Positions 12,367 to 59,000 of a stretch of DNA of 64,000 bases are shown piece by piece; the first letter of the stretch is position 1; each line of letters starts with the position of its first letter. Source of the stretch: a virus. Taxonomy: Duplodnaviria > Caudoviricetes. Where the stretch lies: positions 11,952 to 75,951 of IMG/VR virus record IMGVR_UViG_2895532408_000002, one strand, 5' to 3'. Position numbers and translations under genes: made by a program. A model generated the notes under the pieces. The model was given only the letters and a program-made list of their open reading frames with translations. It was not told the origin of the DNA and did no database searches.

Positions 12367-13541
12367 TACAGGTCCTCACGAATACGGGAATTAGTGATAT
12401 GACAGGGTTTACCTTCTTTGGTGTATCCAAATGAGAATACGGTGAGTTTCTTACCAATATTCTTATGACCGTTTACAGCATGATCGTGTTTCTCATTCGC
12501 ATCCCCAGGCGCCGTAACATCAAACGTTTTACCGTCCTCCGTTTGGCAGACATAAATACCGACCTCGGTACCTAGGCGCTTATTAGGTTTACCCTTACGG
12601 ATACCAATAATTTCAAACTCGGCGTCTTGTTCGTCTTTTCTCTTCATCAGCGATGAGCTGCGCTTATCCGTTTCGTAAGAGGCATTCCCTTGGCGAACCA
12701 TCGTGCCTTCATAGCCGTTAGAGGTCCAAGCCTCGTGGTACTTGTCAATACCAGCTTGATCCATAACTTTGTAACACGCCGTTAGACACAGGGTAGGGTA
12801 AGAGCTTTCGGTTATACGAGAGTCCAAGTAATCAAATCTATCAGCGTAAGGAAGACCAAGAACAACATCATAAATATTGTACGACAGGTATTTACTGTCT
12901 TCTTGTGGCTTCTTGATAAGACTCGAAATATTTTCAAAGGCTTTACCATGGCAGTAAAGCTCACCATCCAACGTTGTGCCATCCCAAATACCTGTATCGT
13001 AAAGGAACTGTAAGCGTTCCATGATGTGAACAACCGTAATTGGCTTACCACCTCTTGAATAAAGAAATACCTTTTCATCTTGTACGGTTGCAAGGCAGCG
13101 GTGGCCATCCATCTTAGGTTGAACAAAAACAGGGAATTCCCAATCTTTTACCTTATCAATCGGCTGGGCCAACATGGGTTTTACCAACCCAAGGGCATTT
13201 GTTACCGCGGCACCTTCTTCGGGTTGCTCTTCAACATAACCTTTATCGAGCTGTTTTTTTACTTTACTTTGTGCTTCAAAAACAGCTTGCATAAGTGGCG
13301 TGGTTTCGTTGCTGCGGCCAAGGTTCTTGCCTTCGGTGTAATCCGTTAGGGTTTCAACGCCCTTACCACCTATAACCTTGCAAGAGGTGACAAGCGTGCT
13401 GGCAGTCCCATCCGCATTAAGGGTAGTTTTGATATGCCAAGAGCCCACCTTTCCGCCCGAGTGGACTTTAAAGAGTGTTTGTTCAAAGCGAACGTCGGCA
13501 TCTAAAGGAGTGGTGCTAGAAGTATTAGCGGGAATATTCAT
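12366..13541 (-). CDS. ATP-dependent DNA ligase
   Basis: KMDGHR adenylation motif, LDGELY, GYEGTMVR, KRK; start after GGAAATTGACGAT. Confidence 0.93.
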   Translation of the reverse strand: MNIPANTSSTTPLDADVRFEQTLFKVHSGGKVGSWHIKTTLNADGTASTLVTSCKVIGGKGVETLTDYTEGKNLGRSNETTPLMQAVFEAQSKVKKQLDKGYVEEQPEEGAAVTNALGLVKPMLAQPIDKVKDWEFPVFVQPKMDGHRCLATVQDEKVFLYSRGGKPITVVHIMERLQFLYDTGIWDGTTLDGELYCHGKAFENISSLIKKPQEDSKYLSYNIYDVVLGLPYADRFDYLDSRITESSYPTLCLTACYKVMDQAGIDKYHEAWTSNGYEGTMVRQGNASYETDKRSSSLMKRKDEQDAEFEIIGIRKGKPNKRLGTEVGIYVCQTEDGKTFDVTAPGDANEKHDHAVNGHKNIGKKLTVFSFGYTKEGKPCHITNSRIREDL

Positions 13542-13586
13542 ATCGTCAATTTCCAAATTTTAAAGTTAAGCCCGTAGGCAGAGTTA

Positions 13587-13772: not shown

Positions 13773-14093
13773 GTGTCGAAAAAAATTGACGATAACTTAG
13801 AACCACCTTGGGAGCTAGAGAGGCGTCGTCTCATAGCTCGTAAATTTAAAACTATGCGTCAGAATTACCGTCTGACTCAAGAAGAACTAGCTATTGCTGC
13901 CGACGTTCACAAGAACACAATCTCAAATGCTGAACGTTACGGCAAAATTTCATCTGAAGAATTCTATAAATACCAGCAAATTGCGAAGCGTGCTCACATG
14001 AAAAAGGGTCTCGGTTCTGTTGTGAGTAAGATTACGCTATCCGACATACCATTCTCAGATTTTAAACGCTTTCTAGCGACCTTTTGGGAGTAA
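13773..14093 (+). CDS. XRE-family HTH transcriptional regulator
   Basis: RQNYRLTQEELAIAADVHKNTISNAERYG; GGAG RBS; divergent from replication operon. Confidence 0.88.
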   Translation: MSKKIDDNLEPPWELERRRLIARKFKTMRQNYRLTQEELAIAADVHKNTISNAERYGKISSEEFYKYQQIAKRAHMKKGLGSVVSKITLSDIPFSDFKRFLATFWE

Positions 14094-26114: not shown

Positions 26115-26138
26115 CGTGTTTTCTCCTTATCGTCAATT

Positions 26139-28123: not shown

Positions 28124-28163
28124 CGTCAATCTCCAAAAGAGGGGGGGAATGTTCCCACCCTAG

Positions 28164-29303: not shown

Positions 29304-29376
29304 AGTCGTCAATTTCCAATTTTTAAAAAGTTAATTACCAAAGTTTTCGAACAAAGGGGGGAACATTCCCCCCCTC

Positions 29377-29871
29377 TTAGGCGACGTCTTTCGCTCTTAC
29401 CTCGAGCATGGCCAGAAGATAATCGGCGTAGCTAATGAAATCATCCAGATACTCACTACCCAGATACAACCACGCAAAACGTTTAATACTTGCAAGGTCA
29501 AGTCCTATACCTTCAGCCGAATACCGGCGAATGTGGATATTGACCCCCAAGAGCGAATCAATCAGCAACGAGCCCGCTTCAAAATCATCCAGCACAAGAC
29601 TCACTTCTTCCACCAAGGCACAGATAAACGCGGATTCAATTAACATCCAGTGCGAATACTTCCAGCCCATCAAGGACCGAATCTTCGCATCACGGACACA
29701 GTAACCCTCAATCGTCGTGTGTGGTGTGTCTTGGGTTATCGGCTTGAGGTTCTGAATCGAGGCCCGAGAGCCTTCGTCTTCACCTTCGAGCGTCATAGCC
29801 AAACGACCACAGTTTCTCGCCGTATGTGCAACCGCAATCATACGCCGGAAAATAGGCAGATTTTTACTCAT
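29377..29871 (-). CDS. Hypothetical protein, probable divergent paralog of the HTCGT family
   Basis: LPIFRRMI / IEGYCVRDAKIRSLM align by eye with FPLLRMLI / VAGYGAVTPEIQKFL. Confidence 0.65.
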   Translation of the reverse strand: MSKNLPIFRRMIAVAHTARNCGRLAMTLEGEDEGSRASIQNLKPITQDTPHTTIEGYCVRDAKIRSLMGWKYSHWMLIESAFICALVEEVSLVLDDFEAGSLLIDSLLGVNIHIRRYSAEGIGLDLASIKRFAWLYLGSEYLDDFISYADYLLAMLEVRAKDVA

Positions 29872-29902
29872 AATCGTCAATCTCACTAATTGTCGGGTTA
29901 AA

Positions 29903-30289
29903 CTATGCCGATTCTCGGGCCGCAGCGCCACTACACGAAGACTTCTCGGTGAATTCGTCCTTACCTAGCACCTTCTCCATTGCACCCGCTGAGGATGCGA
30001 TAGAGGCCGCGCATTCAACACCACAGTTAAAACCAAAATCCACGAGTTTTTCGACCACTGAAAAGTCCAGGCCGAGTTCTTGACTCAGCGCTTGAGTACG
30101 ACGGTGCATTTCACCGAGGTCGTCCGTGCCCTTCAGAGCGTCGGATTTTCGGTAGAGACCAATGAGACATTCGATTTGCTTGGCTTTCATCTGCATGACA
30201 GCTTCAGCAATCTCACGCTGGGTTTGGCGCATGAGTTCACGAGGGGAGGGAGCAGTCTGGTTTACAGGCTGGGGGATGGTTGTAGTCAT
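29903..30289 (-). CDS. Hypothetical protein
   Basis: ORF track; conserved start motif. Confidence 0.75.
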   Translation of the reverse strand: MTTTIPQPVNQTAPSPRELMRQTQREIAEAVMQMKAKQIECLIGLYRKSDALKGTDDLGEMHRRTQALSQELGLDFSVVEKLVDFGFNCGVECAASIASSAGAMEKVLGKDEFTEKSSCSGAAARESA

Positions 30290-30350
30290 ATCGTCAATTT
30301 CCTAAGTTAATTAATCGGCTCACGCCGTAACACCCCGAAGGGCGGATTTA

Positions 30351-30379
30351 GTTATACAAGGGCAAAATGCCCCCGTCAA
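30351..30379 (-). promoter_or_regulatory. Sigma70-like promoter TTGACG-17-TATAAC for the early array
   Basis: Near-consensus hexamers; operator CACAATTTTGGTGTG at 30407-30421. Confidence 0.75.
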
Positions 30380-30877
30380 TTGCAATGGTCTGATTAGGAC
30401 CAAAAACACAATTTTGGTGTGGTTCAAATTCACAGGGTTTTGTTGGTCGTTGCGACAGTGAGGACCACCCGTGAATTCAAAATCCCTGTCGCGCAAAAGT
30501 TACAGCTCGTCACGCAAAGGTCGTTTGCCAGATCACTGCGGCTTGCAGCAAGTCACAAGGAGGAACACGGACAACGCTTGTAAATAATCCTTGGCTACGA
30601 ATTAAAACGAAAGCGAAGTTTTTAAAAGTATACTTCTTAAAAAATGTTCCCAGTAAAATATATAAATGTACATTTAATAACGAAAGTTTGTGGGAACATT
30701 TTTGTCACCGGCTCTGTAGGCCTTATCCACCACGGCATTGCGAGTAATAAATACCCTCACCGAAGTTACGCGTAACTGGTCAAATTTCGCACAGCTACAG
30801 GCCGCATTCTACCGTTCGAGCATTTCGCAAAAAACGCTGAGAAAGTTTATGAGAACACAAAACCTAAGTTATTGAAT

Positions 30878-31186
30878 CTAGGCCCTTAAATTGGTCTTGT
30901 GTGTGACTTTTAAGGGTTCTGCACAGGTTACGTCAAAAAGTTTACGGGAACAGGTGTTAACTGGCTCGGGAATGTCTGTTTTGGCCAGTCTAATTGTTGT
31001 GCTCATTTCGCAAACTAACAACATTTGGTGATGCTTTGCTACGCGCTCGGGGTCCAAATTACCTAGCTGTAAGAGTGTCACACCTTTCAATTCTAGCGTG
31101 CCAATCTCGTATTGTAGCGTGCCGTATTGGAGGACAACCACTGGCTTAGGCCAGCCAAAATATACCGAAACGTTATTAAATTTCAT
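30878..31186 (-). CDS. Hypothetical protein
   Basis: Start MKFNN after motif. Confidence 0.6.
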   Translation of the reverse strand: MKFNNVSVYFGWPKPVVVLQYGTLQYEIGTLELKGVTLLQLGNLDPERVAKHHQMLLVCEMSTTIRLAKTDIPEPVNTCSRKLFDVTCAEPLKVTHKTNLRA

Positions 31187-31510
31187 CGTCAATTTCCTGT
31201 CAAAAAGTGTCCAAAATTGTCTCAAAATGGGGGAGAATGTTCCCCCCTTTAGGCTCTTAACCTATCTCAAAATGGGGGAGAATGTTCCCCCCCTTAGGCC
31301 CTAAAATCGGGCTCGGTTTTGAGGTTAAGGCAAATACCTGTGGCCTTAAATTACTTTACACGACCCTTGTATAGGTCCTATATTCTCATGCGAGAAGCTT
31401 GGGGAGAGGGTTGAGGGTTGGAATCGGCCCTGCTCCTATTTCCGCGCTGTCAACACTTGATTCGAATTTTTCGATTCTTTTTATCGAACCAAAAACCACC
31501 AGCCTAGATT

Positions 31511-31771
31511 TTAGATTCTATTTTTTAGAATGAATCCGCCTTTCCACCAGCAAAAGCGCACTTCCACCAGCCGAAAATGACTTCTTCTATCGTGAGCTTC
31601 ATCCCACAAACTGAAAATCGAGATCAAGAACAGCGGAATACTAGCGTAACTAGGTACACCTATTAGGCCCAGGCCCTCGGCACTCGAAATGAGGACCGTG
31701 AACCCAGCCACCAGCGTGAGAAAGTGCACCATAAACGCAATAAATAAAGCTATATCTGTACGTTTAATCAT
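31511..31771 (-). CDS. Small 2-TM membrane protein
   Basis: Hydrophobic segments; variant motif GGAAATTGATGATG. Confidence 0.65.
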   Translation of the reverse strand: MIKRTDIALFIAFMVHFLTLVAGFTVLISSAEGLGLIGVPSYASIPLFLISIFSLWDEAHDRRSHFRLVEVRFCWWKGGFILKNRI

Positions 31772-31784
31772 CATCAATTTCCTT

Positions 31785-31967
31785 TTAGTTGAACAAGTGT
31801 GGTTCGGTAAAATATAAATCCCGAATATTCTCTTCAGTTAAGACTTTTACGTGCTTTTTTAATTTAGAAAGTAGAATGGTTCGTGTGTATGGGCCATCGT
31901 GAATAACAAACCCTGCCCTTTGCTTACCATGCGGGCCCATGAGTAGCTTGCTTTGCACTGTAATCAT
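31785..31967 (-). CDS. Hypothetical protein
   Basis: Variant motif GGAAATTGATGATG. Confidence 0.65.
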   Translation of the reverse strand: MITVQSKLLMGPHGKQRAGFVIHDGPYTRTILLSKLKKHVKVLTEENIRDLYFTEPHLFN

Positions 31968-32199
31968 CATCAATTTCCTTGTATCTGGGGGGAATGTTCC
32001 CCCCTAAAAATCGCCGCGACAGTCACGGCCCTGTAGTTGCCCAAATTCCCTTCGCGCCAATTGCTATAACAATCCACCAGCCTAGACCCTAGAAACGAGG
32101 CCCTAGGCACGCAATACGCTAATAAAGAACCGCGTATACCCACCAGCACGCACATCATGTATATGATGTAGGCACGCGCTTAATAGCTTCGCGAAAAGT

Positions 32200-32238
32200 A
32201 AAAAACCGATTAGTACTAGCCGTACTAATCGGTTTTTT
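32200..32238. terminator. Intrinsic terminator AAAAAACCGATTAGTAC-TAGCC-GTACTAATCGGTTTTTT
   Basis: 17-bp perfect stem with tracts on both sides. Confidence 0.85.
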
Positions 32239-32280
32239 ATTTCTCGAATTGAGGGGGGAATGTTCCCCCCCTTGGTCCGC

Positions 32281-33000
32281 TTACTTGGTCAATTGCTTTT
32301 CGATATCCTTTTGAATATCTAGCGTTAATGCAAGCATAGCTTTGGCAACTTTTGCGCGGTGAGTCTTAGGTAAACCAGCCGCGTCTAGGGCCTCAAGTTG
32401 GTGATTGATCAATGCTTGAGTGTGATCCTCAAGCTTAGAAACTAGGGCCTGAACCGCACTTGTTACATTGTCGTCCGCTGCACGTTTAGCCGCGCCCCCC
32501 TCTTTATCCTTGCCTTTTACCGGCTCGTTTTTCGCGTCCTTGCTTGGCTTTTCTTCTTTCGCGTTAGCCGGTAAATAACCCTCTAAAAAGGCCAACCATT
32601 CCACGCGCCCTTGTGGAGCAGTACCCGCGCCGTAAATATCCGCGCTTAATACCTTGTCACCTATTTGCGCAAAAGTGCCGTTTAATTCGATGGTTTTGAT
32701 AGCGTCGAAAAACTTGGTTAGATATTGGCGGTTATCATTTACGAATTTCACGTAAGTTTTCCAATAGCCTTTCGCCTGATTGTATAGGCGTGAGCTATCG
32801 CGGTTAGCTTTTGTACGTTGGTTAGCTGGCACGCCGTACAAGTCGCAACAAAGCGCAATATTAGCGCCTTTTTCCATGTTGTGTGCTACGGCATAGCAAG
32901 CGATAGCCATTTTCACGGCTGGCACACGTAGATCATTCTTATCAGCAGTAACAAGCGCAGAAGCAAAAACAGAAGCGTTAAAAGTGGTGGTAGTAGTCAT
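32281..33000 (-). CDS. Hypothetical protein, first gene of the early arm
   Basis: ORF track; motif at start; TTGCAT-18-TATAGT upstream (33088-33117). Confidence 0.8.
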   Translation of the reverse strand: MTTTTTFNASVFASALVTADKNDLRVPAVKMAIACYAVAHNMEKGANIALCCDLYGVPANQRTKANRDSSRLYNQAKGYWKTYVKFVNDNRQYLTKFFDAIKTIELNGTFAQIGDKVLSADIYGAGTAPQGRVEWLAFLEGYLPANAKEEKPSKDAKNEPVKGKDKEGGAAKRAADDNVTSAVQALVSKLEDHTQALINHQLEALDAAGLPKTHRAKVAKAMLALTLDIQKDIEKQLTK

Positions 33001-33197
33001 TATCGTCAATCCTTAAAAGTTAATTTGTTGGTGGGGGAATGTTCCCCCCTCGAGTCAGTAAGTCGCTACTTGCCCCGAGTTGTATTCACTATATAAGGGG
33101 GGGTAGATTTTATGCAAGAAAATGGGGCGATATAGTGGGGTGGTCATCACACGCCACCTGAAAAATTTTTGGAATTTTGGAAGGTTATAGCTACTAC

Positions 33198-33305
33198 CCT
33201 CAACCCTAGAACCGAGAACCGAGAACCGAAATCCTCAACCCTCAACCCGAGAACCTAGACCCAAGACACAAAAACTCAATCCTAGACCCGAGAACCTAGA
33301 CCCAA
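33198..33305. repeat. Strand-biased array of degenerate ~7-mers (AACCGAG / ACCTAGA / ACCCTCA)
   Basis: AGAACCG x3, CCTCAAC x2, CCCGAGAACCTAGACCCAA x2. Confidence 0.75.
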
Positions 33306-33336
33306 AAGTGAACCTTAGGAATATAAAACGAGTAGT

Positions 33337-33535
33337 AAAAGAAAACCCCGAGGGTTGGGCCACTCGGGGTTTGAGACGTTCAACGTAATCAGAGGTCGTT
33401 GTGCGTAGGATAAGCTTGAAACTAGGTATGTATACAGGAGTACAAAAGTTAGAACAGCTTTATCGTCAATTTCCAGATTGTAGGAGTGGTTAAGGTGTCG
33501 AGCCCCCACTCGGTTGATTAGCCTTTAAAGGTGTA
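33337..33535 (-). ncRNA. Candidate non-coding RNA carrying a start-less target motif (possible sponge)
   Basis: TTGACA at 33561-33566 (weak -10), TGGAAATTGACGATAA at 33460-33475 with no ATG, terminator stem 33343-33372 plus U tract. Confidence 0.4.
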
Positions 33536-38745: not shown

Positions 38746-38763
38746 CAATTTGGGAAATTGACG

Positions 38764-40224
38764 ATGGCCGGAACAATACTTAGCAAGCTCAAGGTAATTG
38801 TGCCTAATCGGTTTAAGCCGAAAGGGAGTACACAAACTGCGACCTATAACGCAGAAAACAATACGGAAGTCCTATCGCTCCCAGATTATCGGGAACACTT
38901 AGAAGATATTTATTCAAGTCGAGTTTCGGATAACTCACAAGAACTCATCATGAAGCTTGTTAAGTCCGATCCTGACGCTTCAGCAGCCCTAGGTGCGTAC
39001 TTAACCACTGCCGGAAGCGCTATCCCTTATATTGTTGTAAAAGACCCTGACGGAGCGATTGACCGCGACGGGGCCAAGATAGTCAATGAGCTTATTGAAG
39101 CCCTCGAGACCCGTCGGGATTATTCTAAAGGTTACTTAAGACCTAAAACGCTTCGAGAACTCTCCGAAGAGTTCCGCTATATGTTATTGGCCCGTGGCGG
39201 TATAGGGTGTGAAACCGTATTTGGGGACCAGCTTCAATTAACTGAGCTTCGTAATATTGATATGGCCAGTATTCGATGGCAAGAGAAAGAGCCAGGGAAA
39301 ATGGTACCTTGGCAAGACCAAGGCGGCGGGGACCCAATAAAGATGGATATCCCGTCGTTCTTCGTAGCGTGGTACCGAAAGTCACCTATAGAAGCCTATG
39401 GCCATAGCCCATTTGTTAGCGCAATTAATACCATGGCAGCAAGGCAACAGGTGATTAATGACTTGTATCGAATCATGCAAGTTACAGGGTTCCCGCGAAT
39501 CGCTATCAAGGTACTTGAAGAAGTCTTGGTGAAAAATGCCCCCGCGGATGTTAAGGCCGACGCACAAAAACTAAGAACCTATATTTCTCAACGCCGCCAA
39601 GAGATTGGAAGCGCGTTTGCTTCGCTGCGTCCAGACCAAGCGATGGTTCACACCGACAGTGCGGAAGTCTCAATGCTGAATGAAAAGAACCCTGCTACAG
39701 GGATTAAAATTCAGGAAGTGATTGATACGCTAAACGCGCAAAACCAAGCCGGTTTAAAGACGATGGCTACGGTATTAGGGAGAGGCGAATCAGGGGTGAA
39801 TACAGCTACGGTTGAAGCGAACTTATTTGCTAAAGCAGCGGATAGTTTGAATGAACCTATCGGAGAAATCCTCGGTAGTATGCTGACGATGGCCTTGCGT
39901 ATGCAGGGGTCAGAGAGTCGAGTTATTGTTAGGTTCCCGAATATTGATTTGCGCTCAGAGCTTGAGCTAGAGGCACAATTGAATTTGAAATCTAACCGCT
40001 TGCGCACGGACCTGAGTGATGGCTTGATAACAGACGATGATTATCATATCGCCATGTATCGTCGAATCCGTCCTGACGCTGTACCGGAGTTGAGCGGGAC
40101 TGGTTTTATTGGTGGCGCTATGGAAGTAGACGCTGAAAAAGTGAGCCCTAATTCTGACCCACAAGGACGCTCAGTTAGTCGCGCTTCAGACAAAAGTGCG
40201 AAGTCTAACGCTAACCAGTCTTAA
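38764..40224 (+). CDS. Portal protein
   Basis: Size and position after terL. Confidence 0.75.
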   Translation: MAGTILSKLKVIVPNRFKPKGSTQTATYNAENNTEVLSLPDYREHLEDIYSSRVSDNSQELIMKLVKSDPDASAALGAYLTTAGSAIPYIVVKDPDGAIDRDGAKIVNELIEALETRRDYSKGYLRPKTLRELSEEFRYMLLARGGIGCETVFGDQLQLTELRNIDMASIRWQEKEPGKMVPWQDQGGGDPIKMDIPSFFVAWYRKSPIEAYGHSPFVSAINTMAARQQVINDLYRIMQVTGFPRIAIKVLEEVLVKNAPADVKADAQKLRTYISQRRQEIGSAFASLRPDQAMVHTDSAEVSMLNEKNPATGIKIQEVIDTLNAQNQAGLKTMATVLGRGESGVNTATVEANLFAKAADSLNEPIGEILGSMLTMALRMQGSESRVIVRFPNIDLRSELELEAQLNLKSNRLRTDLSDGLITDDDYHIAMYRRIRPDAVPELSGTGFIGGAMEVDAEKVSPNSDPQGRSVSRASDKSAKSNANQS

Positions 40225-51000: not shown

Positions 51001-53341
51001 GATTAATGATTTAATCCGCAATATAAACCCAAGTGAAACGGGCGCATATGGCCGCGCACAAGAAGCCCGTACTCAAACACGAGCCTTACAAAGCCAACTA
51101 TTCAACATTCTTAATCAATCGCCTCAGGAACTCGATAACCTTATGGGGCAGTTTGGCTTGTCTGGGGAAGCGCGGGACAAAGCCGAGGAATATATCAATA
51201 ACCTTGCTCAAGAAATGCTTAACCGAGCAAATACGTTACTTGAAGTTGAGAACAACCAGAAGCAATATGATTCGTTAGACCCTGAGTTAAAGAAAGAAGA
51301 GCGTAGAATTTCGGCAATCGTCTTAAAGAACCGTCGCGAACTTTTAAACGACATTGCAGAGACGAGTGAGGAAATAAATGCTCTTACGGAAAAGAACACA
51401 AACTACGAGACCAGCGATTATCTCGGGACCTTTAAAGATATAAACACATTGGTTCGAGAACAAATACAGGGGTTACTTGAAGACGAGAAGAACGCTTTAG
51501 CTGAATTAGAAGCTGAAGGCGTTGCTAACCCCCGACTGGTCTTGCAAGAACAGGGTTATTACCAAGCGGCAGGGGAGGCCCGAGGCAAGTTAGAACGTTC
51601 ACTACAATCCGCTGCGAAAGATGCCCGACCCGACGCCAATTTATACTATCCCGCGAGACTGGCGGAGTTAGATAAAGAAATCGATGTGCTTCGCGACCAA
51701 CTACGTCAAGTCACGGATCGCGATAAATCCGATGAAGTAAAAGCTAAGCTTAAGGAAATAAACCTTGAACGTGAGCGCGTGGCCAACGAGCAGGATACCT
51801 TGTTTGCGGCTATAGATGGGAACTCCCCTGTATCGGTGGCCCAGCGAGATAGAGAGTTAAATGCACGCGTAACGCTAGGCAATCAACAGTTTGACACTAT
51901 TCAAGCGAAGACGTTTGCGCGAAGCCGTTTAGAACGTTCGATTGGTGAGCAACAGGACCTCGATGTTAGAGACTTTAAATTATTAGGGGATGATGATGAG
52001 CTGTCGCGTTTACTCTCGGATGTAATAGGTGAAGAACGGGCCGAGATAAATAACCAATTATCTAAAGCGAGACAAGATGCTGAGACGCTTAGAAACAACG
52101 CTGGGGATATTCGTTATGACTCCCAGCGCTATCTTAATATCGCAGGGAATGAAGGTTACACCGATGAGACCCGAGAACGCGCTGCAGGGATAGCCAACGA
52201 GTTAGAGAGCCAAGCGGTACAGCTTGAGAAAGAAGCTATCGCGCTGGAAGAACAGGCTGTTAAGCAAGCGAAAGAAGCGTTAATGGACTTTGCTGAATAT
52301 CTTCAGACAACCATTATCGATAACGAAGCGCTCACAGATGGCCGTTCAAAAGCGAAAACTCGTAAGTCGGTTGAAGACTTAGAGACTCAAAACATTAGTC
52401 TGGATGGGGACCTTAAAGATTTATCCCAAGCCACAAAAGAAGCGGATAGGGGCTTAATAGAATTCAGAGATCAGATGGGGGATACGGTTCGCCGGATAAA
52501 CCAGAGTGTTTACGAGAGTGATGAGTTTAGAAGAACCCAAGCGGCTATTTATGGAACGTCATATTCTCCGACAGGAGAACAAGGGGTCGATGAGAACTAT
52601 GGGGGCCAAGGCGGAAAAACGTTAGGTTCGCAACTCTCTAACGCAGGGGCCTATGTCGTTGATGAGGTTAACAAAGGTTACGAAAACTTTGATATGTTAA
52701 CCCAAATGACTAACGAAGCGATAAGCGCAGCCCAGGGCCTAGGAGACGCGTTTGGAGCTACCTTCGCAGATATTATAACGGGTGCCGCTGAGTCTGAGGA
52801 TGCGTTTAGAGCCTTAGGGGTAAGTATTCTTACGGAAATGGCCAATATCGCCACCCGAGCGTTAGCTAATCAGTTAATTATGTCGTTGTTCTCGGGTCTA
52901 GGTTTAATGGGCGGCGGCATGGGAGGTTTCTTCGGCGGAGGGATGTATACCGGTGGGCCTGTAATCGCGGGGAGCTATAAAACAGGGGGCTTAATCACAA
53001 GTGGTATGTCTACCCGTGATTCCACTTACGCCAAAGTAAGTCGAGGGGAATTCGTTCTGCGTAAAGCTGCCGTTGACGCTATTGGTCTAGAGACTGTTAA
53101 GGCCCTCAATTCTGCAGACCCTAATAGTGTGTCTGATAAAGAAATGATGACAAGTAGCGCGGCCCAAGCAGCCGCAGCAACGAACAGTGAAGATTCAGGT
53201 ACGGTAAATGTATATGTAGTGAGTGAAAAGCAGTTACCTCCGATGGGGCCAAATGATGTTAAAGCGGTAATTGGTGATGATATCGCGAGAGAGGGTGAAC
53301 TGGCGTCACTAATCGCATCTGTAGCAATGAGGACTAGATAA
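48029..53341 (+). CDS. Tape measure protein
   Basis: 1770 aa helical; TP901-type core (TKFTATDVADAAITLGQAG, LANSGIRAGST-like). Confidence 0.92.
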   Translation: MAGSTGSGNTIRSTLLNFTVDPKSKKVIEELTREFEKLERVTQAASQQLQANIKAIKDTPQGRSELAQNAKNEVNTQRKILNENQKNARALLDQIALTVGKGLNPQQQQELLKGLNQAFGEITGRFTKQAQAQAKKQAKDLADYYDLQFRKNPTVPKGNPLYKSRVNTLSESELRSGIQRQKLLRSGAQSALNDAIRLGDTSLEKKAQGALKKLESGLVAAESRLKKFTDAAKKAEVAQDTQARTVRRTLKSYNDDEFRLNPTVAKGQKVKASQIATLNRTQLEDAIARNKVYENAARKALKSSLAPETRNKTLENNAGKALKELEASTKLAQARLKEFAEAAAEAKRAEKAAMKAQRPTTQVTEQQRVARRIEQIQQARTNQRLDGGAQLFRNQGQLLRNYAVMGAGVGGLATSATFSTELDRQFKQLQSIVNLTNEEMEELSKNLIDVSEKTKFTATDVADAAITLGQAGLGQNDIQNAIEGVTLFATAVGSDLKSAVDLATSTLGVFNKDSSQMINIVDKMTTAVNSSKLNLDKLALGLQYSGNLAAQSNVTFEETVSALGAMANSGIRAGSTLGTGLRQIIISLQKPSESFTEIVHNLGLSMSDLDITTHGLIPVMKTLAESGFTVRDAMESMEVRAASAYGAFANNISVAEDLSEQMRIGGSAARANDTQMEALANQLDRLGSISKSIVYESMEPLLDTITKLTEKTADFLSVVRDLGPILSALAVPASILGGVLATRSVLRLGAGLLGGVDMLTGGKGKGSTIARLAKVASSRGLGTAAGFAARAIPGVGLATAVGTAGVYGYQYLDGRARANDRVDSTQAALNRGSSETKVYEDQLKKVGSAIDTLILKQNDLTDNKSLQREIRRLNDEFRQQGLYIDDSINSYDKLITKMKEFEDATRDGVGYLQTQNRNNFVDNSQAKLDELFSIGFFDSSERKLLANEGNPNVSVGSGKTATSRGRFASRGNVYRSLIDTALPNFGEDLAGINDLIRNINPSETGAYGRAQEARTQTRALQSQLFNILNQSPQELDNLMGQFGLSGEARDKAEEYINNLAQEMLNRANTLLEVENNQKQYDSLDPELKKEERRISAIVLKNRRELLNDIAETSEEINALTEKNTNYETSDYLGTFKDINTLVREQIQGLLEDEKNALAELEAEGVANPRLVLQEQGYYQAAGEARGKLERSLQSAAKDARPDANLYYPARLAELDKEIDVLRDQLRQVTDRDKSDEVKAKLKEINLERERVANEQDTLFAAIDGNSPVSVAQRDRELNARVTLGNQQFDTIQAKTFARSRLERSIGEQQDLDVRDFKLLGDDDELSRLLSDVIGEERAEINNQLSKARQDAETLRNNAGDIRYDSQRYLNIAGNEGYTDETRERAAGIANELESQAVQLEKEAIALEEQAVKQAKEALMDFAEYLQTTIIDNEALTDGRSKAKTRKSVEDLETQNISLDGDLKDLSQATKEADRGLIEFRDQMGDTVRRINQSVYESDEFRRTQAAIYGTSYSPTGEQGVDENYGGQGGKTLGSQLSNAGAYVVDEVNKGYENFDMLTQMTNEAISAAQGLGDAFGATFADIITGAAESEDAFRALGVSILTEMANIATRALANQLIMSLFSGLGLMGGGMGGFFGGGMYTGGPVIAGSYKTGGLITSGMSTRDSTYAKVSRGEFVLRKAAVDAIGLETVKALNSADPNSVSDKEMMTSSAAQAAAATNSEDSGTVNVYVVSEKQLPPMGPNDVKAVIGDDIAREGELASLIASVAMRTR

Positions 53342-53727
53342 TGTCTATCGAACAATTTGATTTTATTTATCACAAAGTATCACATCGATACCGAGACCGT
53401 TCCACCCATTTGTCATTGGGGAATCAGTGGGATTATGTAACTAAGCCCACCGCACCAATAAGCCGGATATTTACTTTAAATTATTCGGTGATGAAGTATT
53501 TTGAAAACCCCCAGCTTCTTAGTCCTTTAGAAAGACGATATAGCGCGGATCATTTGGATGAGTTTTACCAACGACACGAAACGTGGAAAGAGTTTATCTT
53601 CCAACATCATAAATTTGGTAATGTTGTTGTACGGTTTGACCAGCCACTTGAGCTACCACAAGGGATAACGGGAGGGGACGGGGCAATTGAACCGTTTAAA
53701 GTTATGTTGCGTGAAGTAGCACTTTAA
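53341..53727 (+). CDS. Distal/minor tail protein (gpM-like)
   Basis: Position; LDEFYQRH...FIF. Confidence 0.65.
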   Translation: MSIEQFDFIYHKVSHRYRDRSTHLSLGNQWDYVTKPTAPISRIFTLNYSVMKYFENPQLLSPLERRYSADHLDEFYQRHETWKEFIFQHHKFGNVVVRFDQPLELPQGITGGDGAIEPFKVMLREVAL

Positions 53728-53764
53728 TTAATAAAATATTTATTAATTAATTTAAACAATATTA

Positions 53765-53793
53765 TTGACAATAAAATTGTGAGGCCGTAGTAT
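53765..53793 (+). promoter_or_regulatory. Sigma70 promoter TTGACA-17-TAGTAT with overlapping operator-like dyad (53767-53781)
   Basis: Consensus -35, AT-rich UP region 53728-53764. Confidence 0.8.
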
Positions 53794-53800
53794 TGCCCTC

Positions 53801-53878
53801 GGTTAGTAGTCCAAGTGGCTCCTAATTATCGTCAATTTCCAAATCAACGCCTCAGCCTTGCTGGGGTGTTCTGTTTTT
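53801..53878 (+). ncRNA. Candidate trans-acting sRNA antisense to the phage-wide start motif
   Basis: Promoter, seed CUCCUAAUUAUCGUCAAUUUCCAAAU, terminator AACGCCTCAGC-CTT-GCTGGGGTGTT-CTGTTTTT; 5' end inferred. Confidence 0.75.
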
Positions 53879-53947
53879 GGGCGATTGAAAAATATTCAAT
53901 CTATTCCTCTTTTCGGTATACTAGGCGAAAATTGAGGGAAATTGACG

Positions 53948-54436
53948 ATGAAAGAACTTTCACAAGAAATTCAGTCCCAACGTCACTCGCTGACTCCTGA
54001 AGACTTAACCACTTATCTAGAGCTTATTATTGAAGACCCTGACGGGCAACCGGTTATTATCCGCTTAACGGATAGGGAAACTCGCGACTGGAAAGACGTC
54101 ACTTGGGCTCACTCCCCGTTTAAAATATCAGGTATCGGTAACAAGTCTTCAGGTGAGAAAACCAGACCGAGCCTTTCGCTCCCTAACGAGGGGGGTATCT
54201 ACAGCTATTATCTAAATCAAGGGCTGTTAGAGGACGCCATTGTCACTCGATACAAAGCACTACCCCATGAAAAGGGCGGGTCGCTAACGTCCAAGCACGT
54301 TTTTTACGTTTCTCACGCCAGTAATATTAGTGCCTCTATTTTAACCCTTCAGTTAAGAAAGCTCTCCGACGGGAACAAAACCAAGTTTCCCCCTCGACGC
54401 TATGTGCAACCTGAATTTAGTACGGTAATTGTATGA
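53948..54436 (+). CDS. Minor tail protein (gpL-like)
   Basis: PFKISG...RPSLSL...A.VTR...FPPRR. Confidence 0.7.
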   Translation: MKELSQEIQSQRHSLTPEDLTTYLELIIEDPDGQPVIIRLTDRETRDWKDVTWAHSPFKISGIGNKSSGEKTRPSLSLPNEGGIYSYYLNQGLLEDAIVTRYKALPHEKGGSLTSKHVFYVSHASNISASILTLQLRKLSDGNKTKFPPRRYVQPEFSTVIV

Positions 54437-54930
54437 TTAAAGAACTCAATAGTTTTTGTGGCCACCACTACGAGCAAGGGATACAGGATTGCTATTCGTT
54501 GGTCAGGGATTTCTACAAGACCCGTTACCAGATTGAGATCACAAACTACGCGAGACCGGATAACTGGATACAAGACCCCAGTTTAGATTTCTTCACCAGT
54601 AAATTTGAAAAAGAAGGTTTCAAAGATACAAATAACAATCCTCACAAGGTTCGCTTTGGGGATGTGTTAATGATGCGTATTGCCGGTAGTCAAGTCGTTA
54701 ATCATGTGGCTATCTATGTGGGGAGACAAAAGATACTCCACCATTTACAGGGCCGCTTGAGTGAAATTGTTGATTACACTGATAAGTGGCGAATTAGGGT
54801 TGTCCGAGTGGTAAGACACCCCGAGGTTGAGAAAACCACGGAGGCCATGACGTTGCACAACCTTCATAAAGGCTTACCAATTCATCTTAGAGCCAAACTT
54901 AGAGGGGCCAAGAATGGGACAGTTGAGTAA
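54433..54930 (+). CDS. NlpC/P60 tail assembly protein (gpK C-domain)
   Basis: DCYSLVRDFY, NHVAIYVG, ILHH. Confidence 0.85.
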   Translation: MIKELNSFCGHHYEQGIQDCYSLVRDFYKTRYQIEITNYARPDNWIQDPSLDFFTSKFEKEGFKDTNNNPHKVRFGDVLMMRIAGSQVVNHVAIYVGRQKILHHLQGRLSEIVDYTDKWRIRVVRVVRHPEVEKTTEAMTLHNLHKGLPIHLRAKLRGAKNGTVE

Positions 54931-56032: not shown

Positions 56033-59000
56033 GTGACGCGAAGCGTATTTAAAGGCCGTGGTGGTGGGGGTGGACCCTCTAACGCTGCGGACAACTTATT
56101 TTCCACCGACGCATTTGAATTCGTCCTCGGGATTTCCGAAGGGCCAATCGGCGGCGTCGTGGGGGATACCCCAGAAGAAAAACTTCAAAATATCTTTATA
56201 GACGATACCCCTGTCTTTAACAGTATTAATGAAACCAACTTTGATAACGCCAGCTTAATGCTGCGTTTCGAACAAGGCACATTGATATCTGCTAAAGACG
56301 ACCCTGAAGAAGGACAAACGCCTATTTGGTTTGGCCTTGGGGGAAAGAATGTCATTCAATCTGTTTCTGCTCTGCTTACTTATCAGGCTCCGGTTACTCG
56401 AACTACGGTGCAGACTGTTTCAGGTTTTGATGAAATAGAGCTTCGCTTTACCGTTTCTCAGCTTGTTAGATATACCGATGATGGGTCTAAGACTCATAGC
56501 GTGCGTTTTCTTATTGAGTATAAAAACCTTTTAGATAGTGCTTGGCTTTCTAGGAACCTAACCATAACGGGTAAAACCACGGTAAGCCCGTTCGTTAGGG
56601 TTTACAATATTCGATTCCCTCGCACAAAGCCTGAAGACCAGTTCGAGATTCGAGTCACACGTTTGACTGAAGATTCGAACGAAGAAGACGTAGCCGAGGT
56701 AGCTTGGACCAGCTATGAATTGCTCACTAAGTCTGGGGATGCCTACACCGAAAATGGTGTTGAATATGACGACCCAGACTTAGAATATCACCCTGGGCTT
56801 GCCATGATGCACGTTGTAGGGGTATTGGGCCAGCAGCTCACCAAAATCCCCACCGTGAGCGCAAACTACGACGGTATAAAATGCGCGGTACCCTCTAACT
56901 ATGATCCTAAAACCAAGACGTATGAAGAAAGCTCTGCGTGGGATGGTCAGTTTCAAGCCGAAAAACACACTACCGATAATCCTTTTTGGATAGCTCACGA
57001 GCTGGTTACAAACCCTATATGGGGGATCGTAAAGGCTAACCCTCGCGTAAAGATAAATCGTTACAACGTTTACCGCATGGCTAAGTATGCGGATGGTTAT
57101 GATTTAAAAACTAATGAAAAGAATCTTACCAATCCTATTACCGGCCAAGACAACGCACCACGGTATACTTTTAATTCCGTGCTAACTGACCCGCAAAATG
57201 GGTGGGATGTACTTAGGTATGTTTTGGGTAGTGCTTTTGCTAGGCCAATAGAGCAAGACACGGGCGAAATAAAGTTTATTGCTGATTTACCCGACTTACC
57301 GGTTGCGTGGGTAACCCCTGAAATGTGTTTCAGCCAAACAGGTACCTCGCCCTTCTCGTACAACTTTTCGGCCTTATCCGAGCGTCACAATGCGGTTACT
57401 TCCAGCTATATTGACGCATCTTTAGATTATCAACAGCAATACGTCGCTGAGATTCGTGATGAAGAGTCTATTTTAAAATACGGCCTCAACACACATGAAT
57501 TTGATGCTAAAGGGGCTACGGATATCTGGGAAGTAAAACGCCGTATGACGTTTTATATCTCTTCGGTGACCACAGAAGTAAGAACCGTTTCGTTCTCCGC
57601 TCCGCAATTGGGGATGGAGTTCGAACCTATGGATATCATCAATATAGTTGATCCTGAAACGGGTCATGCTTATTCAGGCCGTGCTGTAAAACTAGAAAAT
57701 AAAGCTGTAACACTTCGAGACCCTGTTTATTTTGATGAGGCCGGTACCTACAACGTTAAGGTGATGGGGAAGTTCGAGAACTTCGACTTCACCATGGATG
57801 TGCTTTCTTCCGACGTTGCAAAACCTATCTATAGGTTAAAGCTAAAACAACCAATGCCGGACCTTACGCTTTTCAATAAATATGCACCAGTTGTCGTTTC
57901 TGCTTCTAGGAACGGCCAGCTAGTAGGCCTACCGAAGCCATGGCGCATTATCAGCATTAACGAAAATGATAGTATCCCCGAGCTTTACGATTTCTTTTGC
58001 CAAGAGGTAAACCTGAATAAACATGGGGATGCTGACAATCTAATTATTTCGGAAGCTCCTAAATACTCGTTTCTTCTTCGCCCTCAAGTTCGCAAGGTTA
58101 AGAACCTTCGGGTCGTTGATGAAGAGCATATTCAGGTACGCGGGATTGAACAAATAAACCTTTGGATAGGGTGGGAGCTAGAGGCCCCATTACCCCCTGG
58201 CGGTTATTTCGAAGTGCGTATCACGGAACAATCTGTTAATGGCCGAGAGTACACCACCAAAACGAACAACCTTTATTTTGAAATTCAGAACGTAAAACTG
58301 GGGGATATCAAAATAGAGGTTCGAAGCGCTCACGGTGAAACCGCAAGCCCATGGGAAGTGCTAGAGTGGTCTACGAATATGGTATCGGCCAATGACCTTA
58401 GAGACGCCGGTATTGTCCCTGAAATCGCTATTAAGTATGAGAACTACGCCTTAACGATAGACAGTACCGTAATGTTTGATTTCGGGTCTACGCAAGTTAA
58501 TCGCGTTAACCTTCTTGAGACAAACGGCGTCGTGGGTATTCAGTTTAAAATATATGACGATGTTGACCCTGAGAACCGCGTACACCTTCTTACCAAAACT
58601 GCTCGGTCCTCTTTAATAATACCAAAGAGCGAATTTGAAGTTGCCGCTTCAGAGAATGATGTGGAATTGCCTTCAGATTTGTATATCACGGCGAGGGTTA
58701 TTGATTTGGTCGGGGACTTTTACCCAGACCTATTCCAGAGCCCTTTAGTTTATCAAGTAAGTAACCCTGCTTCAGAGATAGAGAATTTAACGTACCAGTA
58801 CGTTTTCTCAGACGAGGACCCGCACTTGGTAATGTGGGACGACAATAACTACGGGTATGAAGTGACGCTTTATAAGCCCGATGGTCGAAGCGTTATCTCG
58901 CATTACACTATTTATGACAGTAGCCAAGTTTTCGGATTCCTACGAGCGGCAGAGAACTATGTCGTAAAAGTAAAAGGTTTCACCAATACCCTTAAGTACG

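What the first reader, a model, noticed from the sequence alone, without database searches (positions are those of the whole stretch)
53765..53878. Hidden phage sRNA antisense to the translation-start motif of ~38 genes: candidate genome-wide RNA switch
SEEN: the gap between tail genes holds TTGACA-17-TAGTAT, then ~78 nt containing CUCCUAAUUAUCGUCAAUUUCCAAAU, then a GC stem plus U tract. This is the only motif copy antisense to its surrounding operon, and it opens no ORF on the minus strand. It is the reverse complement of ATTTGGAAATTGACGATA found at gene starts (18/18 at the ligase start 13541-13558). Common target variants fit G-U wobble: GGAA/GGAG and GATA/GATG lie opposite U, and TTGATG (31773, 31969) lies opposite G. 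That favours RNA:RNA pairing over a DNA-binding protein. Where the motif sits upstream of the SD (terL 36941, 26129, gpJ 56011), the sRNA's 5' CUCCU can reach the SD. KNOWN: P4 CI RNA and P1/P7 c4 RNA are phage immunity RNAs with few targets. INFERENCE: one RNA occludes ribosome loading on replication, early and structural genes alike, for lysogeny, superinfection immunity or timing. The XRE/membrane/peptide cassette lacks the motif.
Basis: partly seen in the sequence, partly recalled or inferred. Interest (0 to 1): 0.96.

Follow-up and report, generated by a model that had tools for sequence, protein, structure and literature searches.

The report
Phage small RNA mirroring gene-start motif
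A marine temperate phage puts the same 13-letter tag on the ribosome-binding sites of about a third of its genes and keeps one small RNA gene that is the exact mirror of that tag, so one RNA can probably mask the translation starts of much of the phage at once.

Summary
Between two tail genes lie a sigma-70-like promoter (53765-53793), about 80 nt with two hairpins and an open centre, and an intrinsic terminator (53846-53880).

The open centre is the exact complement of GGA(A/G)ATTGACGAT. That motif has 34 exact copies in the 75,951-bp phage record: 33 in the sense of the genes and this single antisense one.

The new evidence is comparative. Four related lineages, one of them the cultured Pseudoalteromonas phage KB12-38, keep the unit at the same place. 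In each lineage the RNA centre carries that lineage's own version of the motif. This covers a 2-nt indel and two point differences, and the pattern of the point differences follows G-U wobble rules. That favours RNA:RNA pairing over a DNA-binding protein.

Three of the four lineages were checked for a ProQ/FinO-family RNA chaperone and all three encode one. Three relatives without the motif were searched for that family and lack it (G006, G007 and phage JWF).

Not shown: a short transcript and any effect on translation. Two metatranscriptome contigs cover the unit. One begins at the predicted start, but both read through the terminator, so a role as a cis-acting leader remains open.

The scan found this system before on related DNA (e1-6061504, e1-6061513, e1-6034966). 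My searches found no paper describing it.

The parts
53765..53793 (+). Sigma-70-type promoter, TTGACA-17-TAGTAT
   Evidence: 10 of 12. Both hexamers and the spacing are kept in lineage B (TTGACA-17-TAATCT) and in KB12-38 (TTGACT-17-TACTAT), while the spacer diverges: 52% identity between A and B over the -35 to -10 stretch. In lineage C only a weaker, extended -10-like match, read by eye.
53800..53880 (+). Predicted small RNA of about 80 nt (5' hairpin, open seed, terminator hairpin, U tract). May also be the 5' part of a read-through leader.
   Evidence: Fold z = -3.97. 85% identity between lineages A and B against 66-69% for the flanking genes. A metatranscriptome contig starts at about 53799. 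No Rfam family and no tRNA.
53801..53827 (+). 5' stem-loop
   Evidence: The pairs are kept across lineages, some with changes on both sides.
53827..53844 (+). Seed: reverse complement of ATTTGGAAATTGACGATA (core 13-mer at 53828-53840)
   Evidence: 0 mismatches, minus strand. It is the only antisense copy among 34 exact 13-mers. It is unpaired in the minimum-energy fold.
53846..53880 (+). Intrinsic terminator hairpin plus U tract. Expected docking site for a FinO/ProQ-domain protein (inferred).
   Evidence: Compensatory changes across lineages: 8 of 20 alignment pairs have both sides changed with the pair kept.
53881..53947 (+). Conserved leader between the terminator and the next gene, containing the hairpin ATTGAAAAATATTCAAT
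   Evidence: 82% identity between A and B. Covered by both RNA-library contigs.
53937..53949 (+). Sense motif copy at the start of the downstream 162-aa tail gene (53948-54436). This is the nearest possible cis target.
   Evidence: In the read-through leader the minimum-energy fold pairs it with the seed.
13541..13558 (-). Perfect 18-nt target at the ATP-dependent DNA ligase start
   Evidence: Pfam DNA_ligase_A_M, E = 4.4e-18.
38749..38766 (+). Target copy at the start of the 486-aa gene after terL (function not tested), given as an example of a late-gene target. Other late-gene targets start at 40294, 41907 (major head protein), 46451, 47344 and 48023 (tape measure protein).
   Evidence: PHROG annotations for the major head and tape measure proteins.
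31766..31778 (-). Target variant GGAAATTGATGAT (C>U opposite the seed G, so a G-U pair). A second such copy begins at 31974.
33461..33478 (-). Sense copy with no gene start, inside a non-coding unit bounded by a promoter-like and a terminator-like site, next to iteron-like repeats. Possible decoy or leader target.
   Evidence: Comparable start-less sense copies occur in non-coding leaders in all four lineages. The lead came from earlier notes e1-6256647 and e1-6256655.
13783..13797 (+). Partial motif copy AAAAATTGACGATAA inside the first codons of the XRE-type HTH gene
   Evidence: Weak Pfam HTH_3/HTH_31 matches, below the curated cut-offs.

Best explanation
What it is. The unit at 53765-53880 is a gene for a base-pairing regulatory RNA. 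Its single-stranded centre, AUCGUCAAUUUCC plus flanks, pairs with the standard translation-initiation motif GGA(A/G)AUUGACGAU(G). That motif holds the Shine-Dalgarno sequence, a fixed 7-nt spacer and the start codon.

Which genes carry the motif. It heads most independently translated cistrons of the phage: replication, accessory, head and tail genes, about 35-40 of about 94 ORFs.

How it likely works. Pairing covers the Shine-Dalgarno sequence and the AUG, so it should block 30S binding. One RNA could therefore lower translation of much of the phage programme. Genes that are translationally coupled to a motif-bearing gene would be dragged along.

Likely helper. The phage's own ProQ/FinO-domain protein is the likely chaperone, docking on the terminator hairpin and its 3' tail. 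It is encoded at genome 5400-5906 on the minus strand, outside the window.

Shown and inferred. Shown here: the anatomy, conservation, seed-motif covariation, the presence of the chaperone gene, and RNA-library contigs over the unit. Inferred: action in trans, repression, the chaperone partnership, and the biological purpose. For purpose I favour silencing of leaky lytic messages in the lysogen and seed-specific superinfection immunity.
For: 1. Single antisense copy. Of 34 exact 13-mers, 33 are sense and 1 is antisense, with 0 for the reversed control pattern. The strict co-orientation and the fixed position at the start codon point to action at the RNA level.

2. The unit sits at the same place, between the gpM-like gene and the next tail gene, in four lineages.
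- A: G000, plus G003-G005 and other close contigs.
- B: G001 and G002, 64% gpM-like protein identity to A.
- C: G008, 41% identity of the 162-aa protein.
- D: Pseudoalteromonas phage KB12-38, 58% capsid identity.

3. The seed follows each lineage's motif.
- A: motif GGAAATTGACGAT, seed AUCGUCAAUUUCC.
- B: motif GGAAAT(C/T)GACGAT, seed AUCGUCGAUUUCC.
- C: motif GGATTGACGAT, seed AUCGUCAAUCC.
- D: motif GGATTGAC(A/G/t), seed AUUGUCAAUCC.

4. The differences follow wobble rules.
- Where the seed has A (lineage A), 0 of 47 sites in G000 have C at that position, and 0 of 33, 33 and 33 in G003-G005.
- Where the seed has G (lineage B, G001), ATG-linked sense sites split 16 C to 18 T (my count).
- Where the seed has C (G008), 17 of 17 sites have G.
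- Where the seed has U (KB12-38), the sites have A 5, G 3, T 2.
- Over the four genomes (133 sites with at most 2 mismatches), there are 50 wobble-compatible transitions against 17 pairing-breaking ones. Only 4 of the 17 lie at interior positions 3-12.

5. RNA-like conservation.
- 85% identity between A and B over the RNA, against 66-69% for the flanking genes.
- Two hairpins, with 8 of 20 pairs changed on both sides and still paired.
- Single-sequence fold z-scores of -3.97, -5.25, -6.44 and -4.11.
- The plus-strand ORF is broken in lineage B.

6. ProQ/FinO family (PF04352).
- G000: E = 5.4e-12, 46.1 bits against a cut-off of 27. The closest solved chain by sequence is E. coli ProQ 5nb9, E = 2e-5.
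- Also present in G001 and KB12-38; absent from JWF, G006 and G007.
- The gap after the gpM-like gene is missing in JWF, G006 and G007. No enriched strand-biased 9-mer turned up in the parts of them that I held.

7. Transcription.
- 24 public runs, 21 on record as RNA and from 14 studies, hold 6-10% of the sampled words of 53300-54600.
- Of 4 runs laid, 2 gave a contig. One starts at about 53799, 6 nt after the -10 hexamer. It shows no listed difference over 53801-53881, but 25 differences in the whole piece 53801-54093.

8. In KB12-38 the downstream gene's own motif (GTGGATTGACTATG) matches the seed less well than several distant gene starts do. This argues against a purely cis role.
Against: - No short transcript has been shown. 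Both RNA-library contigs (53799-54231 and 53815-53994) run through the terminator into the next gene. Contigs cannot give strand, ends or level, and DNA carry-over is possible. Two of the four runs laid gave nothing.
- The leader after the terminator is itself conserved, 82% between A and B. In the read-through form the seed pairs in cis with the next gene's ribosome-binding site in the three lineages folded, A, B and D.
- The four lineages form one clade, so the co-occurrence of motif, RNA and ProQ is phylogenetically a single event. Each wobble asymmetry rests on one pair of lineages.
- One RNA against about 35 messages raises a stoichiometry problem during lytic growth.
- In KB12-38 the 3' part of the motif is loose, with many transversions at positions 11-13, so pairing there is short, about 10-11 nt.
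- In lineages C and D the minimum-energy fold partly buries the seed.
- In the analogous SAS system of Cluster K mycobacteriophages, Hurricane keeps 15 forward motif copies and has no antisense copy. A start motif can therefore exist without an antisense RNA.
- The host is unknown, and no relative of this clade was found in isolate genomes.
Confidence: 0.6

Rival explanations
1. Cis-acting leader only. The promoter drives the downstream tail genes, and the antisense element is an anti-ribosome-binding-site sequence in their 5' UTR. It folds back on the start of the 162-aa gene, and the terminator acts as an attenuator. The match to all the other gene starts would then be a by-product of the shared motif.
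For: - Both RNA-library contigs read through the terminator.
- The minimum-energy folds of the read-through leaders pair seed and downstream motif in lineages A, B and D.
- The leader after the terminator is conserved, 82%.
- In A, B and C the downstream gene's motif is a perfect or near-perfect complement of the seed.
Against: - It does not explain why about 35 other genes keep the 7-nt spacer invariant.
- It does not explain why the constraint at one motif position relaxes genome-wide, from T only to C or T, exactly in the lineage whose seed changed A>G.
- In KB12-38 the cis target has a U-U mismatch and an extra base, while distant starts match better.
- The seed flank (AAAU) matches the genome-wide upstream consensus ATTT, not the downstream gene's own flank TGAG.
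Confidence: 0.15
2. The motif is primarily a signal read by something else: a phage or host RNA-binding protein, or the ribosome as a translational enhancer. The antisense RNA would be a secondary modulator or anti-enhancer laid on top of that signal, not the reason the motif exists.
For: - The motif marks independent initiation sites. Motif genes lie a median 30 nt from the upstream gene, and non-motif genes a median -0.5 nt (from my rough ORF calls).
- The Cluster K phage Hurricane keeps 15 SAS copies with no antisense copy. In Ekdilam the antisense loop differs by a 1-nt deletion from its forward SAS, 15 of 16 of which read GGGATAGGAG and one GGGACAGGAG.
I did not test this.
Against: - No candidate protein has been identified.
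- In this clade the motif never occurs without the unit (4 of 4 lineages), and the motif variants follow the seed's pairing rules.
- This reading is compatible with the best explanation and does not exclude it.
Confidence: 0.15
3. The motif is a DNA-level site, such as an operator for a DNA-binding protein or a recombination boundary sequence for cassette exchange. The inverted copy would simply be one more site.
For: - The motif contains TTGAC.
- The early region is built of cassettes: a G-run/C-run hairpin, then AATTAACTT, then the motif. That arrangement could favour recombination.
- G008 has one gene start with the lineage-A form of the motif, which suggests cassette exchange.
Against: - 33 of 34 copies share one orientation and sit at a fixed distance from the start codon.
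- The wobble asymmetry has no DNA-level rationale.
- The inverted copy is embedded between conserved hairpins showing compensatory changes, with its own promoter and terminator.
Confidence: 0.05

Closest known systems
RocR sRNA with the FinO-domain chaperone RocC (Legionella pneumophila). Source: review PMC9977716, passages read.
   Same: A trans-encoded sRNA built as a 5' hairpin, a seed and a terminator hairpin, which pairs with several mRNAs and represses their translation. Its dedicated FinO/ProQ-domain protein grips the terminator and 3' tail. Here the same RNA layout and a FinO/ProQ-family gene occur on one replicon.
   Different: - RocR has four chromosomal targets in competence. Here there are about 35 targets, which carry a standard motif and make up much of a phage genome.
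- No sequence relationship: Rfam finds nothing.
- Binding of this protein to this RNA has not been tested.
FinP/FinO-traJ (F-like plasmids) and Inc/FopA-repZ (pCol1B9). Source: PMC9977716, passages read.
   Same: A mobile element encodes both an antisense RNA that masks a ribosome-binding site and its own FinO-domain helper.
   Different: Those RNAs are cis-encoded, antisense to a single target gene. Here the RNA gene is remote from its targets, and there are dozens of targets.
c4 antisense RNA of phages P1 and P7, and the CI RNA of P4. c4 source: review PMC12197685, passages read. P4 CI is recalled from memory and not read here.
   Same: A phage immunity RNA that pairs at or near a ribosome-binding site. 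In P1 and P7 the immunity specificity is set by complementary differences between RNA and target. The lineage-specific seed-motif pairs seen here look the same.
   Different: c4 and CI have one to a few target sites in a single operon leader. This RNA matches the starts of about a third of all genes. No Rfam C4 hit.
Start-associated sequences (SAS) of Cluster K mycobacteriophages. Sources: Pope et al. 2011, PMC3203893; PMC11373665 (2024); PMC12699233 (2025). Passages read.
   Same: An asymmetric 13-bp motif that includes the Shine-Dalgarno sequence, sits a few bases before the ATG of 11-19 genes, and is conserved beyond what rRNA pairing explains. Pope et al. note a single opposite-orientation copy in four K1 phages. 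In Adephagia I find that copy (record 58682-58694) in a 432-bp non-coding gap, forming the 10-nt loop of a hairpin of about 20 bp.
   Different: - Different sequence, host phylum and phage family.
- SAS occur only in the non-structural arm.
- The papers' passages say the role is not known and propose no antisense RNA.
- The antisense copy is dispensable there: Hurricane has 15 forward and 0 reverse copies, and the Ekdilam loop is off by one base.

Membership tests
Trans-encoded base-pairing sRNA served by a FinO/ProQ-domain chaperone (RocR/RocC type) | Discrete transcription unit with its own promoter and an intrinsic terminator | tested here: met
   Consensus scans. Promoter hexamers and the terminator hairpin are kept in lineages A, B and D; in lineage C the terminator is kept and only a weaker promoter match was read by eye. 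Compensatory changes support the hairpins. This is pattern-level evidence only.
Trans-encoded base-pairing sRNA served by a FinO/ProQ-domain chaperone (RocR/RocC type) | Accumulates as a short stable RNA | tested here: inconclusive
   Of 4 RNA runs laid, 2 gave a contig. One begins at about 53799, but both read through the terminator. Contigs cannot show ends or strand.
Trans-encoded base-pairing sRNA served by a FinO/ProQ-domain chaperone (RocR/RocC type) | Single-stranded seed complementary to the ribosome-binding regions of several mRNAs, with covariation between seed and targets | tested here: met
Trans-encoded base-pairing sRNA served by a FinO/ProQ-domain chaperone (RocR/RocC type) | A cognate FinO/ProQ-domain protein is encoded and binds the terminator and 3' tail | tested here: inconclusive
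   The gene is present (PF04352, 46.1 bits against a cut-off of 27; 5nb9, E = 2e-5; also in G001 and KB12-38). Binding cannot be tested with these tools.
Trans-encoded base-pairing sRNA served by a FinO/ProQ-domain chaperone (RocR/RocC type) | Represses translation of its targets | not testable with these tools
   Inferred from pairing across the Shine-Dalgarno sequence and the AUG.
Rfam families of phage and plasmid antisense RNAs (C4, FinP, RocR and others) | Match to the family covariance model at its gathering score | tested here: not met
   0 matches in the whole window against 4227 families.
Start-associated sequences (SAS) of Cluster K mycobacteriophages | Asymmetric motif of about 13 bp that contains the Shine-Dalgarno sequence, lies within a few bases of the start codon of many genes, and has one orientation | tested here: met
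   This is an analogy of kind.
Start-associated sequences (SAS) of Cluster K mycobacteriophages | Consensus GGGATAGGAGCCC, in Cluster K actinophage genomes | tested here: not met
   The motif here is GGARATTGACGAT. The nearest cultured relative infects Pseudoalteromonas.

The most novel reading that the evidence does not exclude
These phages run an RNA-only master switch with four parts:
- a private 'start code', one standard ribosome-binding motif on every independently translated cistron;
- one antisense RNA that reads that code;
- the phage's own FinO/ProQ chaperone;
- a start-less sense copy in an early non-coding transcript that acts as a decoy to release the block.

Seed-motif pairs would define immunity types, and they would evolve through G-U intermediates, as seen between lineages A and B. 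The same logic would explain the 15-year-old SAS puzzle in part of Cluster K, where the anti-SAS sequence sits in a hairpin loop in Adephagia-like phages.
Probability: 0.3. Interest if true: 0.9.

Novelty: new variant of a known kind. Interest (0 to 1): 0.8.

Why it matters
Antisense RNAs that mask a ribosome-binding site, and FinO/ProQ helper proteins, are both known. They are known for one or a few targets.

Here a whole phage genome appears to be wired to one RNA through a standard translation-start motif. That would be a post-transcriptional equivalent of a repressor and its operators. It would offer a new mechanism for lysogenic silencing, for timing, or for sequence-typed superinfection immunity.

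It also gives a concrete and testable candidate for the unexplained start-associated motifs of other phages.

One member of the clade, Pseudoalteromonas phage KB12-38, is in culture with its host, so the idea can be tested directly.

Tried and rejected
- Rfam and tRNA/tmRNA searches of the window found nothing.
- DNA search of 53300-54500 against isolated phages found no match.
- Host search in isolate genomes gave nothing for this clade. The gpL/K-like protein had no relative. Alignment A3 found only a JWF-like prophage in Burkholderia paludis MSh1. The host therefore stays inferred, as a marine gammaproteobacterium, from KB12-38.
- The metagenome scan with A3 gave 10 loci and no new lineage.
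- IMG/VR pattern scans for the seed found only contigs already known: 11 of A/B type and 2 of C/D type.
- Duplex energies of the RNA against all start regions separate motif genes from the rest only by construction, so I do not use them as evidence.
- Read laying: runs X2 and X5 gave no contig. I draw no conclusion from the parts of the stretch without cover.
- Small shares of words in the 24 runs are not used to name a habitat.
- Promoter reading of the motif (TTGAC as a -35 element): rejected. No -10-like conservation follows the ATG, and such a transcript would lack the start codon.
- Peptide reading: rejected. The plus-strand ORF 53815-54000 is broken in lineage B, and the minus strand has only a 3-codon frame after TTG.
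- Extension to SAS: only partly upheld. Adephagia, Peanam and LilPharaoh keep the anti-SAS loop. The Ekdilam loop is off by one base, and Hurricane has none.
- Literature searches found no paper describing this system. One search returned nothing. Supplementary files of the papers were not seen and could hold relevant tables, for example SAS lists.
- A resemblance of the motif to the 16S rRNA region around positions 911-925 is recalled from memory only and was not tested.
Full report
CONTEXT
The window is bases 11952-75951 of a 75,951-bp IMG/VR provirus record, estimated 94% complete. It is a temperate siphovirus.
- A tyrosine integrase lies at the left end.
- The minus strand carries DNA polymerase A, ligase, helicase, a primase-like DUF5906 protein and a DndB-like protein.
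- The plus strand carries a lambda-like late region: terL, major head protein, a 1770-aa tape measure protein, a gpM-like protein, minor tail proteins and gpJ.
- The closest cultured relative is Pseudoalteromonas phage KB12-38 (capsid 58% identical). More distant are Achromobacter phage JWF, Xylophilus phage Lumi and Caulobacter phage Seuss.

The 220-nt gap between the gpM-like gene (53341-53727) and a 162-aa tail gene (53948-54436) contains, in order:
- TTGACA-17-TAGTAT at 53765-53793;
- a predicted RNA of about 80 nt;
- a terminator at 53846-53870 followed by CTGTTTTTGG.

The RNA folds into a 5' hairpin and a terminator hairpin with AUCGUCAAUUU unpaired between them (z = -3.97).

Its centre is the reverse complement of ATTTGGAAATTGACGATA. 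That 18-mer has two perfect copies: the ligase start and this locus. With up to 3 mismatches there are 17 copies against 0.07 expected.

The 13-mer GGARATTGACGAT occurs 34 times in the record and never for the reversed control. All copies but this one are in the sense of the local genes and end at or 1-3 nt before an ATG.

The invariant part includes the 7-nt spacer between the Shine-Dalgarno sequence and the ATG. Ribosome binding does not explain that.

In my rough ORF set of 94, motif genes usually follow an intergenic gap (median 30 nt). Non-motif genes mostly abut or overlap the upstream gene (median -0.5 nt) and use ordinary Shine-Dalgarno sequences. The motif therefore marks independent initiation sites.

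NOTHING KNOWN MATCHES THE RNA
No Rfam family and no tRNA or tmRNA match. No minus-strand ORF of 30 aa or more lies in the gap. The plus-strand 61-aa frame is broken by stops in a relative.

COMPARATIVE EVIDENCE
This is the main new result. Searches with the flanking tail proteins and with the seed itself recover four lineages that keep a promoter-to-terminator unit in the same gap.

- Lineage A is this phage and close relatives, about 90% protein identity.
- Lineage B is G001 and G002, 64-70%.
- Lineage C is G008, 41%.
- Lineage D is phage KB12-38.

Each lineage has its own motif version at its gene starts, and each RNA carries the exact complement:
- A: GGAAATTGACGAT with AUCGUCAAUUUCC.
- B: GGAAAT(C/T)GACGAT with AUCGUCGAUUUCC.
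- C: GGATTGACGAT with AUCGUCAAUCC.
- D: GGATTGAC(A/G/t) with AUUGUCAAUCC.

The 2-nt indel between A/B and C/D is mirrored in the seed.

THE POINT DIFFERENCES FOLLOW RNA PAIRING RULES
- With seed A, no target has C: 0 of 47 sites in G000, and 0 of 33 in each of G003-G005.
- With seed G, which can pair with C or U, ATG-linked targets split 16 C to 18 U in G001 (my count).
- With seed C, 17 of 17 targets have G in G008.
- With seed U, targets have A 5, G 3 and T 2 in KB12-38.

The A-to-B difference looks like the classical compensatory path: A-U, then G-U, then G-C.

Across the four genomes there are 133 sites with at most 2 mismatches. Transitions that keep a pair number 50, and transitions that break one number 17. 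Only 4 of the 17 are at interior positions.

Two caveats apply. The A>G changes at the Shine-Dalgarno position (11 of the 50) have another explanation. Each asymmetry rests on a single pair of lineages.

THE RNA IS CONSERVED AS AN RNA
- Between A and B it is 85% identical, against 66-69% for the flanking genes.
- The promoter keeps its hexamers while its spacer drifts to 52%.
- An eight-sequence alignment gives two hairpins in which 8 of 20 pairs changed on both sides and stayed paired.
- The terminator of C and D differs completely in sequence from that of A and B, yet is still a terminator.

A CHAPERONE GENE TRAVELS WITH IT
The record encodes a 168-aa ProQ/FinO-family protein at genome 5400-5906 on the minus strand, outside the window (PF04352, 46.1 bits against a cut-off of 27). 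The closest solved chain by sequence is E. coli ProQ 5nb9, E = 2e-5.

G001 and KB12-38 have the family as well. JWF, G006 and G007 do not. Those three also lack the gap after the gpM-like gene, and the parts of them that I held show no enriched strand-biased 9-mer.

FinO-domain proteins typically grip the terminator hairpin and 3' tail of their RNA partner. With FinP, Inc or RocR they promote pairing at ribosome-binding sites (review PMC9977716, passages read). Because the carriers form one clade, the co-occurrence counts as a single evolutionary event.

EXPRESSION
Twenty-four public runs, 21 on record as RNA and from 14 studies, hold 6-10% of the sampled words of 53300-54600. I laid four of them.
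- X2 and X5 gave nothing.
- X9 gave a 446-nt contig whose first base falls at about 53799, 6 nt after the -10 hexamer. It runs to 54231.
- X15 gave a 181-nt contig over 53815-53994.

The X9 contig comes from a relative. It shows no listed difference over 53801-53881, and 25 differences in the whole piece 53801-54093.

This is a weak hint of a transcription start at the predicted place. But both contigs read through the terminator, and contigs prove neither strand, nor ends, nor RNA origin.

THE MAIN RIVAL
The main rival is a cis-acting leader.
- In the read-through RNA the seed pairs with the next gene's motif in lineages A, B and D.
- The leader after the terminator is conserved, 82%.

I rank it lower for three reasons.
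- It leaves the genome-wide invariance of the spacer unexplained.
- It leaves unexplained the lineage-wide shift in what that position may be.
- In KB12-38 the cis target is a poorer match than several distant starts.

The two roles can coexist.

A DNA-site reading fits neither the 33:1 orientation nor the wobble pattern.

RELATED FEATURES OF THE SYSTEM
- Earlier notes of this scan pointed to a sense copy without a gene start at 33461-33478 (-). It lies in a non-coding stretch between a promoter-like TTGACA and a terminator-like hairpin, next to iteron-like repeats. Start-less sense copies in leader-like non-coding contexts occur in all four lineages. It may be a decoy, or a leader target like the P4 seqA/seqC sites (recalled from memory). 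I did not test this further.
- The XRE gene carries a 13-nt complementary stretch in its first codons.
- The ProQ gene has a displaced partial copy.

COMPARISON WITH START-ASSOCIATED SEQUENCES
Pope et al. 2011 describe a 13-bp asymmetric motif at 11-19 gene starts of Cluster K mycobacteriophages. They leave open whether an RNA or a protein reads it, and they note a single opposite-orientation copy in four phages. Papers of 2024 and 2025 still call the role unknown.

In Adephagia I find 16 forward copies and one reverse copy. The reverse copy lies in a 432-bp non-coding gap and forms the 10-nt loop of a hairpin of about 20 bp, next to a 17-bp hairpin (z = -7.0). The element is present in 137 mycobacteriophage records.

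The parallel is only partial, on the five phages aligned.
- Peanam and LilPharaoh keep the loop.
- The Ekdilam loop lacks one base relative to its forward copies, 15 of 16 of which read GGGATAGGAG.
- Hurricane has 15 forward copies and none reversed.

VERDICT
The unit is real and conserved, and it is most likely a base-pairing RNA tied to a genome-wide start motif. Its trans action, its repressive effect, its chaperone and its purpose are inferred.

Follow-up agents of this scan reached the same reading on related genomes. That is not independent evidence.

My literature searches found no description of the system.

Noticed in passing
window 16010-33060, minus strand (for example upstream of 16010, 18117, 20371, 22890, 25888, 28130, 29313, 31193, 31974, 33010): About 10 early-gene starts are preceded by a G5-7/C5-7 hairpin with loop AATGTTC or AACATTC and a T run, then AATTAACTT(TTAAAATTT), then the start motif. 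The early region looks built from standard cassettes of terminator, spacer and ribosome-binding site. Also noted earlier as e1-6256656.
   Followed up: partly
window 33200-33320, minus strand: Tandem repeats of the type GGGTCTAGGTTCTCGG and GGTTCTCGG just downstream of the start-less motif copy. They look like iterons, so this may be an origin of replication.
   Followed up: no
genome 5400-5906, minus strand (L019:5400-5906, outside the window): 168-aa ProQ/FinO-family protein (PF04352, E = 5.4e-12). It lies after a 1167-aa Herpes_ori_bp-like helicase, in the same order as in KB12-38. Its own leader has a displaced partial motif, AAATTGACGAG.
   Followed up: yes
L096:8600-8740 (Mycobacterium phage Adephagia, record 58600-58740): The single reverse-oriented SAS copy is the apical loop (CCUCCUAUCC) of a long hairpin in a 432-bp unannotated gap between gp92 and gp93. 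The element is conserved in 137 mycobacteriophage records. The anti-SAS loop is kept in Peanam and LilPharaoh, off by one base in Ekdilam, and absent in Hurricane.
   Followed up: partly
L017 and L018 (KB12-38), for example near record 39370: The palindrome GGGGTAACGTTACCCC recurs about 10 times in KB12-38. These may be terminator hairpins or operators, playing the part of the G-run hairpins of this phage.
   Followed up: no
L068, minus strand, near 8147 (G008): One gene start in the lineage-C phage carries the lineage-A form of the motif (AAATTTGGAAATTGACGATATG). This suggests exchange of gene cassettes between lineages with different seeds.
   Followed up: no
genome 1240-1270 (upstream of the integrase, L019): The integrase leader has TTTGGATTGACTTAG, which is the C/D-type form of the motif and not this phage's own form.
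   Followed up: no
window 53767-53781: The -35 region of the RNA promoter overlaps an imperfect dyad, GACAATAAAATTGTG. By eye the dyad is not conserved in lineage B.
   Followed up: no
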